A stretch of DNA of 33,674 bases, from the NCBI GenBank assembly GCA_001275005.1, contig JWZX01001537.1, positions 1-33,674 on the forward strand. The letters are read 5' to 3'. The DNA comes from Chrysochromulina tobinii (lineage: Eukaryota). The notes below the pieces were generated by a model that was not told the origin of the DNA, did no database searches, and was given only the letters and a program-made list of their open reading frames with translations. Positions 8,808 through 13,111 of the stretch are shown here, one piece after another; the stretch's first letter is position 1; every line of letters begins with the position of its first letter. Position numbers and translations under genes: made by a program.

Positions 8808-9518
8808 TTACCTCTCGCCGTCAATGGTCGCGCTCCGGGTGCAAATCTCGTTGATCGCACCCCACACCTCTCGCTTCCCCAAGCCCGTGACACTAGACAG
8901 CGCGATGGGCTGGTCGGACGGCAGCGCGAGGCTCTCACGTAGGTACTCAAGGCTGCTCTGCAGGGCTTGCTTGGCAAGCTTATCAGCCTTTGTGGCGACC
9001 ACCAGCGTGCTCTTCGCCTCCGCCTCGAGAAAATCGAGGAGCTGCGCGTCCGACTCCTGCGGATCGCGCTGTGCGTCTACGAAGAGCACCGCCAGCTTGA
9101 GCTCCTCGCGCCGGCGCATGTACGCCTCAATCTGCTTTCTCCAGTCGTCCTGCATTTCCTTGGACACCTTAGCGTAGCCATAGCCTGGCAGGTCGGTGAT
9201 GGTGCACACATTGCCCAGGCGGTAGAGATTGATGAGGCGTGTGCTACCAGGCGTCTTGGAGACCTTTGCAATCTTCTTATTCGGGCGACCGGCGAGCGTA
9301 TTAAGCGCGGAGGATTTGCCCACGTTCGAGCGGCCAGCAAGTGTGAACTCAGGTAGCCTCAGGGAGGGCATGTCCTGCACGCGCACGTACGAGCCAACAA
9401 AAACGATGCCTTCCCGTTCCGCTGCATTCGCCCACGAGACGATGCCGGCACGCGGCGGCAGACACCGCGGTCGCAAAATTGCCAGCGCGCTGGCAAGGCC
9501 GCCCACGACCCCGACCAT
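8808..9518 (-). CDS. engB: Ribosome-biogenesis GTPase EngB/YihA/YsxC family, probably organelle-targeted
   Basis: G1 GRSNVGKSS, G2 SKTPGSTR, G3 DLPGYG, G4 TKADK, G5 LSSVTG. First ATG at 9518 gives an N-terminal extension. Confidence 0.92.
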   Translation of the reverse strand: MVGVVGGLASALAILRPRCLPPRAGIVSWANAAEREGIVFVGSYVRVQDMPSLRLPEFTLAGRSNVGKSSALNTLAGRPNKKIAKVSKTPGSTRLINLYRLGNVCTITDLPGYGYAKVSKEMQDDWRKQIEAYMRRREELKLAVLFVDAQRDPQESDAQLLDFLEAEAKSTLVVATKADKLAKQALQSSLEYLRESLALPSDQPIALSSVTGLGKREVWGAINEICTRSATIDGER

Positions 9519-9954
9519 GACAAAGACCGGCTCAAGCGTTTTCCTCCGCGCCCACACAGTCTCCACGAGTCTCCAACGATCTCCGAAAGTACCCCCCCAA
9601 AAGGTCAAGGGCGCGCTAGATTACGTGCTTGCTCATTCGAAAACATACGGCCGCAGGTAGCGGTCGGCTCCAGGGCTGCTGCACAGCGGGCTGCGGCTGT
9701 TGAGTCGGCCGCGGATTCGGTCATCGCGCGTTCGTGCGGGTGCGTTGGTGGGTTGGGATGGTTGTGAGGTTCGTCTGTGTGATCCTTCAGTGTCCCGGTT
9801 CCCCCGATGAAATTTTACCGGTATCGGCTCGCTGCTCGCAAGTGGGAGCACACAAAGCACAATGCGGGAGTTCATTAGGCATAGCAAAAACCCGCCACAG
9901 CCTGCTGGCCGCCTCACGTAGAGGCGCGTCCCGAACCGAGGGTGTTTGCTCCGC

Positions 9955-10926
9955 ATGTTCGCTACTGCGGGGGTACTCATCATGCTCGTGCTCTACACGA
10001 TGTTCCTCCTTGGTGTCCTTTCCGGCTGGTTGTGGCTCCCATTTTCCCTTGAAGCGACGCTGTCCAAGATTGTACCAGGGATCGCTGCGTCCTTCTTCAC
10101 CTGCAGCGTGTTGTCCATGCGGGAACTATGCAGTGGTGCGGTCGTTGGCTGGCCGTACTTCAAGGTCCAACCTGTTGACCCAGAGATTACGAATTTGATG
10201 GCGACGCCGGTCGCCCTTTTCAGCGCACTTCTCATTCAGGGCGTTCTGCAGGTCATGTCGAGCGCGAACAGTCAGACTTTGTTGGTCACGCCCGCGTTGG
10301 TTGTGCACGTGGTCGCCACCCTCTTCTACACGTGGCAAGCCTTTGCCCCATCACCGTGCGAGCTGCAGTGTTGCTGGCCACTCGCTAGAGCAGGCATCAA
10401 CCCACTGCACAGTGCCCTCTGGATGTCGTCCGTCAGCAGTCAAGTGATGACGCTGTACGGGTTGAGCCAGAGCCTGCAGTCTGCGCCGTCCACCACCACG
10501 CTAGTCGCGGTCACGGGCCAGCGGCGCGTGTGCTTTGCGTTGCTTTGCGTGTCGACCATGCTCATCTCTGGTGCCTTCGCTGACGGCTACCTCCGTGATG
10601 AGCGCGTGAGCATAGCCATGGCGTTTGTGAGCTTCGTCGCGTTCTACGCGCTGCTGTTTACGGGCATCTACCTTCCACTCGTCGACTGCTACTCACACGC
10701 GGTGCTCTCCGACAACCCCAGGCGCAAGAAGAGCGCCACGAGCTACCGCGCGGTCTGCGCCTATCTCGTCCTCGCGTGGCACAGCTTCCCGATCGTTTGG
10801 ACAGCGAATGTTCTGGGTAAAGCGACGCGCACCCAGATCGAGATAGGCTACATCATTTGCGACGTCCTCGCGAAGTTTCTGCCGCCGTCGCTCTATTTGA
10901 CAGTGGCCACGTCCAGAACCAGATAG
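9955..10926 (+). CDS. Divergent microbial (type 1) rhodopsin-like protein with extra N-terminal TM helices
   Basis: Helix G EIGYIICDVLAKF (DxxxK; Lys codon 10873-10875), helix F WHSFPIVW, helix D STMLISG, helix C PLHSALWMSSVSS. About 9 hydrophobic segments, single exon, 323 aa from ATG 9955. Confidence 0.78.
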   Translation: MFATAGVLIMLVLYTMFLLGVLSGWLWLPFSLEATLSKIVPGIAASFFTCSVLSMRELCSGAVVGWPYFKVQPVDPEITNLMATPVALFSALLIQGVLQVMSSANSQTLLVTPALVVHVVATLFYTWQAFAPSPCELQCCWPLARAGINPLHSALWMSSVSSQVMTLYGLSQSLQSAPSTTTLVAVTGQRRVCFALLCVSTMLISGAFADGYLRDERVSIAMAFVSFVAFYALLFTGIYLPLVDCYSHAVLSDNPRRKKSATSYRAVCAYLVLAWHSFPIVWTANVLGKATRTQIEIGYIICDVLAKFLPPSLYLTVATSRTR

Positions 10927-11199
10927 TCCATCGCTCTACTTGAACGTGGCCACGTATACCGCGCACCGCGGCTCCGTAGAGAGCCACCGACAGCGACAAC
11001 CTGGCGAGCCGCCGTCGTTTTGTGTGTGTAACAAGATGCACGAGCTCTCGAACTATCCCCCAGGGAGGTGCCGTAGGGTTTCACACCTGTGCCTTAATTA
11101 GTTACGTGTGAAATTAAAGTTGAGGTCACATTTGCTGCGAATTAATTGCGGGAAACTCGATGTCGACAGTGCGAAGGTCGACTCCCTCGACTCCCCTCG

Positions 11200-13111
11200 A
11201 TGTCGACTGCGATGATGTTGATGCTCCTGATGTTCTCGGTGCAAGGGAGTGTTTGCGCACTCATGAAAGTTCCATTTGTCACATCTGCCAGAGCCAATGC
11301 GCCTTCTACTATGAGCCGCGTGGATTCCAGCGCCTGGCCCATAAGATGCACGACGCCTGGAAGCAGCCGCCGCTGTGATTCGCCAATGTGCGCTCTGTCC
11401 CGCGGACCAATGTTTTCGCCGATGTTCTCAAGAGCCCGGGCTGTTCCGCAGACGGACTTGCTGCCTCGTATACCCGGGTCTCCGTCCCGCAACCGCAAAC
11501 CGGTCGTCAAGACCCCTGGCTATTTGACCACTGGTCCAATTCTGCTCTCGTGGATCGGCGCCATTGTGACTCTGATCTTGCAAGCATCGCTCACCGACTG
11601 GGCACAGCTCGGGCTGGATGCGCAAGCGACTTTTGGCTTTCTTTCAAATGACCCCACCTTGCAACGCGTTGCGATGTACTCATGCATCTTCGTATCCGCC
11701 TTCGGTTGGAGCGCTGCGGTTATGCCACGACTGCTACCCCCGAAGCAGTCGCAGCCAGATGCCGACGGGAAGACAGTCTCCCTTGAGGTGCCTCTCCGGA
11801 GCCCGAGCAGCATGGTGCAGCACCCGCTAAATGGAATCGACGCCTCATACATGGCTCTCAACGCGCTCTGCATGCCCGGCCTCTTCTATCACTTCATCTG
11901 CCTGATGCGCTCCTTCGGCCTTGACTTCGCCTCGCCGCCTATGTTCGGCATCTACCCCGAATCCCCATTCGAACTCGTGACACAGACATTGCCGGAACTG
12001 GTGGTTGCAGTGCCGCTCTACATGGTGAGCTACGAGTTCGTGTACTATTGGTGGCATCGCGCCATGCATGTTTCGCCCATCCTGTACAAGTGGGTGCACC
12101 GGCTCCCTCGGCTCTGATTGCCTCTGATGGTCGCTGATTGCATAGTCTCTGATGGCCTCTGATGGCCTCTGATGGCCTCGGATGACCCCCCTTTTCAGGT
12201 GGGTGCACCGGCACCACCACCAGCAGACGTACCCCGACCGCGGCCTCGTGGACACCTTCAACACGTGCTGCATCGAGTCGCAAGTGGGCCTCTACATGCA
12301 GCTGGGCGTGCTGTGGGCCTTCGATCGTGGCCTTGGGTACTCCAGCCTACCAGGCGCCATCTGGTTCTTCAGCATCGCAGGCTTGCTCTCTGTGCTCTCG
12401 CACGACAACATGGATCGCGCCTTGCCCTTTGATCTCTGGCGAGCAGACGAGCATCACATGCATCATGCGATTGCCAAATGCAATTACGCCCCATACACAA
12501 CGCTGTGGGACCGCGTCTTTGGGACGTATAAGGAATTCGAAGTGAAGCCCGTCACGGCGCCCCGCGAGCTACTACCGGAAGAGGCGATGGCGATTGCTTT
12601 CCTTCCGGTAGTAGCACGCGAACGCGAACCAGAAGGGTCGATGGCACTCGCCCCGATGCGCATCACCGTGTCGGACAGCGCCACCGCTGCTGCCGTGCCG
12701 CCGCTGGCAGAGCGAGAGAGGGAGATTGCAATCTCGAGAGAGAGTGAGATTGCGCGCTTGTCGGAACGCATCTGGAAGGCGGTCCATCACCGCCTTGGCA
12801 TCAGCGACGTCGCAAAAGAAGATGCGATGGAGATGAAAATGAGCCTCGCAAAAGAAGATGCCATCGGCGAGGACCGAGATGACCTCAATGACCTCATGGA
12901 CAGGTCCGCTGACAACGGCCGTCTCAACGGCTACTGCGACGAAGACGACGAGGCCTGCCGCCTCGAGGATCAGCTTGAACGTTCGCAGCTGGTCGATGGC
13001 GATAACATGGTAAAAATGCGAGGGCTCGCCTGGGGCTCCGCCTCGATCATCACCACGCTGCTGTTGTTGTTTGCTGCAATGATGATTTCCTCCGAGAGCC
13101 CGGCGCTCTGA
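11200..13111 (+). CDS. Fatty-acid hydroxylase / sterol desaturase superfamily di-iron membrane enzyme with bipartite presequence. Exons 11200-12089, 12199-13111 (600 aa)
   Basis: His boxes YYWWHRAMH, WVHRHHHQ and EHHMHH followed by NYAPYTTLWDRVFGTY. Signal peptide MSTAMMLMLLMFSVQGSVCA followed by an S/R-rich transit-like segment. Confidence 0.88.
12090..12198 (+). other. Spliceosomal intron (109 nt, phase 2), duplication plus 10-nt array, family 2
   Basis: GTGGGT...TTTTCAG. The first 14 nt (GTGGGTGCACCGGC) are identical to the next exon start. Body is (CTCTGATGGC)-like decamers. Removal restores YKWVHRHHH. Confidence 0.9.

What the first reader, a model, noticed from the sequence alone, without database searches (positions are those of the whole stretch)
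9955..10926. Stand-alone, about 9-TM microbial rhodopsin-like protein with a rewritten helix C
Seen: helix G DVLAK (retinal Lys and D212 equivalent), helix F WHSFPIVW, and helix D Met/Gly at the bacteriorhodopsin M118/G122 spacing. Helix C reads HSALWMSSVSSQVMT where bacteriorhodopsin has RYADWLFTTPLLLLD, i.e. R82->H, D85->L, T89->S, P91->S, D96->T (an L-S-T triad, manual alignment). Two further hydrophobic helices precede the 7-TM core, and the protein ends about 16 residues after the Lys with no effector domain. Known: enzyme rhodopsins (histidine-kinase, cyclase and phosphodiesterase types) have one extra N-terminal helix and a fused C-terminal enzyme, and proton pumps need a D85-type acceptor. 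Inference: this is not an outward proton pump. It may be a sensory or UV-absorbing/bistable rhodopsin of an uncharacterised clade.
Basis: partly seen in the sequence, partly recalled or inferred. Interest (0 to 1): 0.8.

Follow-up and report, generated by a model that had tools for sequence, protein, structure and literature searches.

The report
Enzyme-less nine-helix haptophyte rhodopsin
An alga transcribes a complete gene for a microbial rhodopsin that lacks the residues pumps need and carries no attached enzyme; it is predicted to have nine membrane helices and belongs to a large, untested haptophyte family that likely arose from light-sensing kinase rhodopsins and likely still senses light.

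Summary
Window 9955-10926 encodes a 323-aa type-1 rhodopsin. RNA contigs from 4 of 4 runs cover it unspliced. The model has nine long helices (pLDDT 92). Its best structural match is rhodopsin-phosphodiesterase (Z 25.7, including TM0), so helix 32-59 is the enzyme-rhodopsin TM0 and helix 2-22 is extra.

It is not a one-off. A profile finds 114 representatives, none over 507 aa and none with a kinase H-box; named members are haptophytes. Of 52 aligned members, none has an acid at D85 or D96, while D212 and the retinal Lys are kept.

Seven members already sit in a supplementary tree (Coesel 2021, clade A.5), labelled enzyme rhodopsins, beside algal histidine-kinase rhodopsins that also lack D85. 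So the odd helix C looks largely inherited.

Best reading: an enzyme-less offshoot of that lineage, probably a blue or near-UV sensor acting through membrane partners rather than a pump. A light-gated channel remains possible. Retinal binding, spectrum and partner are untested. New variant of a known kind.

The parts
9955..10926 (+). Intronless ORF, 323-aa stand-alone type-1 rhodopsin (P0001)
9853..11124 (+). Span of unspliced RNA contigs covering the gene (about 100 nt leader, 150-200 nt after the stop); strand taken from the ORF, contigs cannot show it or the true ends
   Evidence: X1 9853-11124, X2 9853-11079, X3 9863-11101, X4 9856-11084
9862..9921 (+). 19-codon upstream ORF in the same frame; its TAG (9919) closes the 5' end of the main ORF
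9958..10020 (+). Extra ninth helix (TM-1, residues 2-22), uncharged; predicted N-out signal anchor
10048..10131 (+). TM0 (residues 32-59), superposes on TM0 of rhodopsin-PDE and bestrhodopsin
   Evidence: 7D7Q model range 31-323, 7PL9 range 30-323; all plain 7-helix rhodopsins but four start at residue 66 or later
10201..10914 (+). Seven-helix rhodopsin core (residues 83-320)
10408..10452 (+). Helix C motif: H152 (R82), L155 (D85), W156 (W86), S159 (T89), S161 (P91), Q163 (L93, L/Q switch), T166 (D96)
   Evidence: L/Q switch position from PMC13739731 section 9
10777..10800 (+). Helix F pocket residues W275, F278, P279, W282 plus conserved H276
10861..10875 (+). Helix G D303 (D212 counterion) and K307 (retinal Schiff-base lysine)

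Best explanation
This is a transcribed, stand-alone type-1 rhodopsin with a predicted nine-helix fold that likely arose from algal histidine-kinase rhodopsins by losing the kinase and likely works as a non-pumping blue or near-UV light sensor acting on a partner in the membrane. Shown: ORF, unspliced transcript, rhodopsin fold with TM0, family-wide retention of the retinal Lys, D212 and pocket aromatics, family-wide absence of D85/D96 acids and of any enzyme domain. Inferred step 1: retinal binds K307 with D303 as sole counterion. Inferred step 2: one counterion plus Gln at the L/Q switch gives a blue-shifted pigment and possibly a deprotonated UV state, as in HKR1. Inferred step 3: with no proton acceptor or donor, isomerisation moves helices but does not transport ions vectorially. 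Inferred step 4 (weakest, about 0.2 alone): since helix G stops where the kinase rhodopsins continue into their signalling coil, the signal passes sideways in the membrane, most simply by pairing with a full-length kinase rhodopsin as a tuning subunit, as NeoR does for fungal rhodopsin-cyclases.
For: Fold: best match SrRh-PDE 7D7Q for two independent clades (Z 25.7, rmsd 2.8, 257 aligned; Z 26.6, rmsd 2.5, 254 aligned). TM0 is characteristic of enzyme- and channel-fused rhodopsins (PMC13739731 section 9; bioRxiv 2020.04.14.040642 passages). Lineage: seven haptophyte members (edges 253-261, 221-516 aa) lie in clade A.5, annotated as two-component sensor kinase rhodopsins. The next rows (edges 266-275) are 511-1060-aa proteins; by eye they have no acid at D85, a His after the helix-F Trp in three of seven rows, two hydrophobic N-terminal segments in most, and an H-box after helix G in five of seven. 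A full-length 730-aa Emiliania kinase-type rhodopsin also has Leu at D85, so a candidate partner exists in haptophytes. Selection on retinal binding: D212 in 50 of 50, Lys in 49 of 50 (the exception is a truncated sequence), W86 in 50 of 52. No acid at D85 or D96 in 52 of 52. Of 74 hits with the helix-G motif, 65 end 11-19 residues after the Lys; 0 of 114 carry an H-box pattern. pN/pS 0.008/0.033 against one allele type (6 vs 8 changes).
Against: No spectroscopic or functional data exist for any member. The sister relation to kinase rhodopsins is read from consecutive edge numbers and by-eye comparison in one supplementary table; I did not see that tree and could not rebuild it with those sequences. 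Sequence profiles hit ordinary pumps best (6KFQ, 6LM0) and did not list Rh-PDE among the 60 rows shown. Neither the 114-hit profile search nor the 747-2130-aa search recovered any kinase rhodopsin. The high Z to 7D7Q partly reflects one more aligned helix. No partner gene is evident nearby. Conserved polar residues inside the bundle (Q95, H118, S159, Q163) fit a channel too.
Confidence: 0.55

Rival explanations
1. It is an independently evolved light-gated ion channel, probably for anions, as apusomonad rhodopsins turned out to be.
For: All known anion channelrhodopsins lack a carboxylate at D85 (PMC8818676 passage). XTQ apusomonad rhodopsins lack it too and have fixed Gln residues in TM1 and TM3 proposed as gates (PMC12557545 section 7 and passages). 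Here Q95 (TM1) is in 31 of 31 and Q163 in 33 of 33 clade A+B rows, and H118 lies mid-TM2. Loss of the kinase frees the protein for a new role. The small A1 profile hit ChRmine best (E 5.8e-6).
Against: No Cys/Asp DC gate (V160/V199). TM1 carries no charge, TM2 only H118 and TM3 only H152, unlike channel pores. Channelrhodopsins rank below Rh-PDE, bestrhodopsin and pumps in both structure searches. The ChRmine hit covers only helices D-G and leaves the top 60 with the larger profile.
Confidence: 0.2
2. It binds retinal but does not signal: a retinal store or photoisomerase serving the many other rhodopsins of haptophytes.
For: The Lys and pocket are conserved while every known output element is missing. 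Phaeocystis species carry 7-16 rhodopsin genes (PMC12480563 Supplementary Data 8 row). Clade B members begin with a signal-peptide-like leader and a basic Ser/Thr-rich segment, suggesting organellar targeting.
Against: At least four old, well-supported subclades with distinct fixed residues near the Schiff base suggest spectral or functional tuning rather than storage. I know of no type-1 rhodopsin shown to have this role (own knowledge).
Confidence: 0.13
3. It is an inward proton pump (schizorhodopsin-like) or a chloride pump.
For: Schizorhodopsins replace D85 by a hydrophobic Phe and keep D212 (PMC13739731 section 9). Chloride pumps head the Foldseek list. Clade R has a Glu in TM1 in 14 of 14 rows.
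Against: Schizorhodopsins need Glu at the D96 position (FSE) and chloride pumps need Thr/Asn at D85. Here D96 is never acidic and D85 is Leu or Met in 49 of 52. The Foldseek hits are at 12-18% identity with near-tied E-values.
Confidence: 0.06
4. It is the 5' part of an ordinary enzyme rhodopsin whose effector exons are spliced on downstream, or a decaying fragment.
For: It sits in an enzyme-rhodopsin clade and was labelled so. RNA contigs drop rare isoforms.
Against: Unspliced contigs run through the stop in 4 of 4 RNA runs with no joint in the gene. The next downstream gene is a fatty-acid hydroxylase. Homologues stop at the same place, including a complete Phaeocystis cordata transcript ORF of 321 aa. 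pN/pS is about 0.25.
Confidence: 0.03

Closest known systems
Algal histidine-kinase rhodopsins of clade A.5 in Coesel et al. 2021 (PMC8017926, Dataset S3A: Dictyocha, Aureococcus, Pelagomonas, Pavlova rows) and the Emiliania A.2 protein
   Same: Same tree clade; by eye no acid at D85, similar BC-loop and helix F/G motifs, two hydrophobic N-terminal segments in most rows. Seven members of this very family are listed there.
   Different: Those proteins are 511-1060 aa and most continue from helix G into a kinase H-box. This family stops 11-19 residues after the Lys in 65 of 74 cases, and clades A/B have R82->H and L93->Q.
Rhodopsin phosphodiesterase of Salpingoeca rosetta (PDB 7D7Q, 7CJ3)
   Same: Best structural match with TM0 superposed (Z 25.7 and 26.6); D212 as sole counterion in Rh-PDE, as inferred here.
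   Different: 12-14% identity; Rh-PDE has Glu at D85, eight helices with a cytoplasmic N-terminus and a fused PDE. Here there is a ninth helix, a predicted outside N-terminus and no enzyme.
Bestrhodopsin Tara-RRB (PDB 7PL9)
   Same: TM0-containing rhodopsin module found in haptophytes; Z 21.0, range 30-323.
   Different: Fused to a bestrophin channel and far-red absorbing (abstract listing); 9% identity.
Apusomonad rhodopsins, XTQ type (PMC12557545)
   Same: Stand-alone, no D85, fixed Gln residues in TM1 and TM3, UV/blue absorbing.
   Different: Seven helices, Gln at D96 and M20 rather than at L93 and about G23, Arg82 kept, specific to apusomonads.
H-type Alt-rhodopsins (Bulzu et al. 2022, PMC9601134)
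   Same: Arg82 replaced by His; an umbrella label that clades A/B fit.
   Different: A polyphyletic label, not a family. That survey kept only sequences with seven predicted helices, which would tend to exclude this family; five family motifs were absent from its two supplementary files.

Membership tests
Type-1 (microbial) rhodopsin | Seven-helix rhodopsin fold | tested here: met
   ranks 1-36 of 48,161 chains are rhodopsins
Type-1 (microbial) rhodopsin | Retinal-binding Lys in helix G within DxxxK | tested here: met
   D303/K307
Type-1 (microbial) rhodopsin | Sequence homology to PF01036 | tested here: met
   Query alone does not hit; 38 of 52 family members do; profile hits PDB rhodopsins at E 4.5e-13
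Type-1 (microbial) rhodopsin | Forms a retinal pigment that photoisomerises | not testable with these tools
   needs expression and spectroscopy
Enzyme rhodopsins (HKR, Rh-PDE, RhGC) | Extra N-terminal TM0 helix | tested here: met
Enzyme rhodopsins (HKR, Rh-PDE, RhGC) | Enzyme domain fused in the same polypeptide | tested here: not met
Enzyme rhodopsins (HKR, Rh-PDE, RhGC) | Eight helices with both termini cytoplasmic | tested here: not met
   Nine helices predicted in two clades; loop charges favour N-out in 37 of 39 rows. Prediction only.
Enzyme rhodopsins (HKR, Rh-PDE, RhGC) | Rhodopsin domain groups phylogenetically with HKRs | tested here: inconclusive
   Published table places members in clade A.5; my own trees held no HKR sequences
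Enzyme rhodopsins (HKR, Rh-PDE, RhGC) | Dimer formation | not tested
Outward proton pumps (DTD/DTE) | Carboxylates at D85 and D96 | tested here: not met
   L155, T166; 0 of 52 acidic at either position
Schizorhodopsins (FSE) | Glu at the D96 position | tested here: not met
Chloride pumps (TSA/TSD, NTQ) | Thr or Asn at the D85 position | tested here: not met
Channelrhodopsins | TM2 glutamates and Cys/Asp DC gate of canonical dimeric channelrhodopsins | tested here: not met
   no Glu in TM2; V160/V199
Channelrhodopsins | Light-gated passive current | not testable with these tools
   needs electrophysiology
H-type Alt-rhodopsins (umbrella term) | His in place of Arg82 | tested here: met
   H152; His in 18 of 19 clade A and 11 of 13 clade B rows

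The most novel reading that the evidence does not exclude
Haptophyte algae have turned a kinase rhodopsin into a new class of nine-helix, enzyme-free photoreceptor that acts in trans within the membrane, either as a colour-tuning subunit of full-length kinase rhodopsins or as a light-gated channel of independent origin, with one subclade sent to the plastid membranes.
Probability: 0.35. Interest if true: 0.85.

Novelty: new variant of a known kind. Interest (0 to 1): 0.6.

Why it matters
Haptophytes are major marine and freshwater primary producers whose light sensing is poorly mapped. A family of about a hundred 50%-identity clusters, partly invisible to Pfam and to surveys that require seven helices, has been filed as enzyme rhodopsins although it has no enzyme. 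TM0-type rhodopsins have been described as fused to an enzyme or channel; a natural free-standing form would show a separate route of signalling, or another independent origin of channel function. The small intronless gene can be expressed directly, so pigment, spectrum and current are simple to test, and a compact single-counterion blue/UV pigment could be useful for optogenetics.

Tried and rejected
No genome is held for the window, so paralogues and a kinase-rhodopsin partner in this organism could not be sought. The Pfam hit LptF_LptG (15.7 bits, cutoff 27.9) is rejected as noise. Fused forms: none among proteins of 747-2130 aa (weak evidence) and none among 114 hits of the length-free search. 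The third word-indexed search returned only 8 hits. Viral copies: 0 of 38 and 0 of 32 pattern matches confirmed. Prokaryotic copies: 1 of 6 matches confirmed, a 1,289-bp contig in an Actinomycetota MAG that is 99% identical to the algal protein, read as bin contamination. A second read-laying run gave no result, so there is no DNA-run control. Neighbouring genes (GTPase, fatty-acid hydroxylase, MAP-kinase-like, DUF2064) show no link. Two low-ranking hits (P0160, P0169) look like ordinary rhodopsins and served only as outgroups; their long branches make the root unsure. Rows dropped: alignment A2 uses 52 sequences chosen by eye for intact helices from the 68 of at least 225 aa plus two shorter ones; fragments and frame-shifted hits were left out. 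Literature: ten full-text searches found no paper describing this family as such; subscription papers such as the Rozenberg 2021 review and the HKR1 paper were not readable. Supplements of PMC13739731 and PMC12557545 could not be read; the former has 13 uncharacterised rhodopsin clusters, of which 7-13 are not defined in the section read, and one could be this family. Earlier scan findings: none by sequence or place.

Full report
Observation. The window is eukaryotic: it holds a spliced intron, MAP-kinase-like genes and about 60% GC. Bases 9955-10926 translate to 323 aa and a stop. The sequence alone is hard to recognise: no Pfam rhodopsin hit and E 0.036 to a solved rhodopsin. A 52-sequence family profile hits solved type-1 rhodopsins at E 4.5e-13 across helices A-G and confirms the register H152=R82, L155=D85, S159=T89, S161=P91, T166=D96, D303=D212, K307=K216. 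Of the 52 members, 38 hit PF01036. Other bacteriorhodopsin equivalences quoted here (helices A, B, D, E) come from this alignment plus recalled numbering and are less sure.

Gene structure. Single RNA contigs cover about 9853-11124 without a joint in 4 of 4 runs laid. The neighbouring hydroxylase gene loses a GT..AG intron (12089-12199) in run X2, so at least that library reports spliced RNA. These are contigs, so rare isoforms, strand and true ends are not shown, and I have no DNA-run control. An in-frame TAG at 9919 lies inside the leader, ending a 19-codon upstream ORF. Three identical alleles at 98% protein identity give pN 0.008 and pS 0.033 (6 and 8 changes), weak but in the direction of purifying selection.

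Structure. AlphaFold2 gives pLDDT 92.4 and nine long helices. A distant member, P0097 (about 23% identity), also gives nine (pLDDT 88.0). For both models the best of 48,161 chains is the membrane part of Salpingoeca rhodopsin-phosphodiesterase 7D7Q (Z 25.7, rmsd 2.8, 257 aligned; Z 26.6, rmsd 2.5, 254 aligned), aligned from residue 31 and 45 respectively. Bestrhodopsin aligns from residue 30 (Z 21.0). So helix 32-59 is TM0, and the short helix at 76-80 resembles the ECL0 helix described for Rh-PDE (passages). Helix 2-22 has no counterpart in these structures. The loop after it is more positive than the loop after TM0 in 37 of 39 members (means +1.6 and -1.5), and clade B members carry a signal-peptide-like leader ahead of it. 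Both fit an outside N-terminus and a cytoplasmic C-terminus. Enzyme rhodopsins have been predicted before to have one or two extra helices, so nine helices is unusual but not unheard of.

Family. The profile search returns 114 representatives at E<=0.001, 78 at 1e-10. The longest is 507 aa. Of 74 with the helix-G motif, 65 end 11-19 residues after the Lys. The seven longer family tails (37-90 aa) look low-complexity, and 0 of 114 have a kinase H-box pattern. Named members are Phaeocystis cordata and Haptolina ericina; the nearest Atlas cluster has 84 members, all eukaryotic, commonest Haptophyta with phylum known for 5. No viral copy was confirmed and the one prokaryotic hit looks like contamination. 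Four groups, A (the query's), B, R and C, each form one side of a branch with bootstrap 97-100. Across 52 rows: no acid at D85 (Leu 39, Met 10) or D96; D212 in 50 of 50; Lys in 49 of 50, the exception truncated; Pro91 replaced throughout; His at the S183 position in 45 of 50. Arg82 is kept in R and C and is His in 29 of 32 A+B rows; Gln at L93 is in 33 of 33 A+B rows.

What is already in print. Coesel et al. 2021 (PMC8017926; main-text passages; Dataset S3A parts 8-9 and searches; Dataset S5) list seven members from Haptolina, Chrysochromulina polylepis, Phaeocystis, Imantonia, Emiliania, Coccolithus and strain CCMP2000 at edges 253-261 of clade A.5, labelled as enzyme rhodopsins. They are 221-516 aa; two cells were cut at 400 letters, so the end of the 516-aa Phaeocystis row was not seen. 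The passages I read do not discuss them. The next rows, edges 266-275, are pelagophyte, dictyochophyte and Pavlova-type proteins of 511-1060 aa. By eye they lack an acid at D85, most have two hydrophobic N-terminal segments, and five of seven show an H-box after helix G. If edge numbers are post-order, which reproduces the R versus (A,B) split of my tree, these are the sister group; this is inference. An Emiliania 730-aa protein in clade A.2 also has Leu at D85. Bulzu 2022 (parts 1-2 of 6, passages and supplement search) coined H-type Alt-rhodopsins but kept only seven-helix sequences. Hidber 2026 (outline, passages, sections 8, 9 part 1, 10) describes uncharacterised clusters 1-6, none matching; clusters 7-13 are in a supplement I could not read. 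Also seen: PMC12557545 passages and section 7; PMC12558739, PMC8815786, PMC8818676, bioRxiv 2020.04.14.040642 and 2020.04.15.042127 as passages; PMC12480563 passages and supplement rows. Ten searches found no description of the family; subscription papers are not covered.

How it most likely works. The retinal pocket is under selection, so the protein likely binds retinal with D303 as the only counterion; D303 is the one acid in the middle of the membrane. One counterion and Gln at the L/Q switch predict blue absorption, and a deprotonated UV state is known from HKR1. Motifs of outward proton, inward proton and chloride pumps are all unmet. Helix G ends where the related kinase rhodopsins run on into their signalling coil, so output must pass through the membrane face or the cytoplasmic loops. 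The simplest partner is a full-length kinase rhodopsin, by analogy with NeoR tuning its cyclase partner in a heterodimer. I put 0.55 on a non-transporting sensor of this ancestry and about 0.2 on the heterodimer route itself. A light-gated channel (0.2) is the main rival, since anion channels lack D85 and the bundle holds fixed polar residues. A retinal store (0.13), a pump (0.06) and a spliced enzyme or fragment (0.03) follow.

Verdict. New variant of a known kind; interest 0.6.

Noticed in passing
P0070, P0082, P0083, P0084, P0134; L009:3-1295, L010:2-1264: Clade B relatives start with a conserved signal-peptide-like stretch followed by 60-80 basic, Ser/Thr-rich, acid-poor residues before the first anchor helix, resembling a bipartite complex-plastid leader (resemblance recalled, no predictor run).
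   Followed up: partly
window 9862-9921 +: In-frame 19-codon upstream ORF inside the transcript leader, a possible translational control element.
   Followed up: partly
P0141, P0171: Clade C has Glu where the otherwise invariant W86 aligns (probably with a one-residue insertion) and His at the Y185 position.
   Followed up: no
P0148, P0157: A further divergent stand-alone group with His at R82 and an Asp-to-Lys spacing in helix G that appears one residue short.
   Followed up: no
window 10645-10647 and 10780-10782 (Y231, H276): A Tyr in helix E (46 of 51 rows) and a His in helix F (45 of 50 rows) are conserved outside the usual pocket positions and may pair across the E-F interface; geometry not checked.
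   Followed up: no
window 8808-9608 -: YihA/EngB-like GTPase (MMR_HSR1 domain, E 4.6e-18; subfamily name recalled) transcribed divergently, its start region about 350-450 bp from the rhodopsin start.
   Followed up: no
window 11146-13111 +: Fatty-acid hydroxylase gene with a 109-nt GT..AG intron (12089-12199) built of a short repeat that is very abundant elsewhere in the transcriptome.
   Followed up: partly
L012:3-857: A 99%-identical copy on a 1,289-bp contig of an Actinomycetota MAG, most likely algal contamination of the bin.
   Followed up: partly
PMC8017926 Dataset S3A, edges 266-275: Pelagophyte and Pavlova-type kinase rhodopsins appear by eye to have two extra N-terminal hydrophobic helices, so nine-helix enzyme rhodopsins may exist too.
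   Followed up: no
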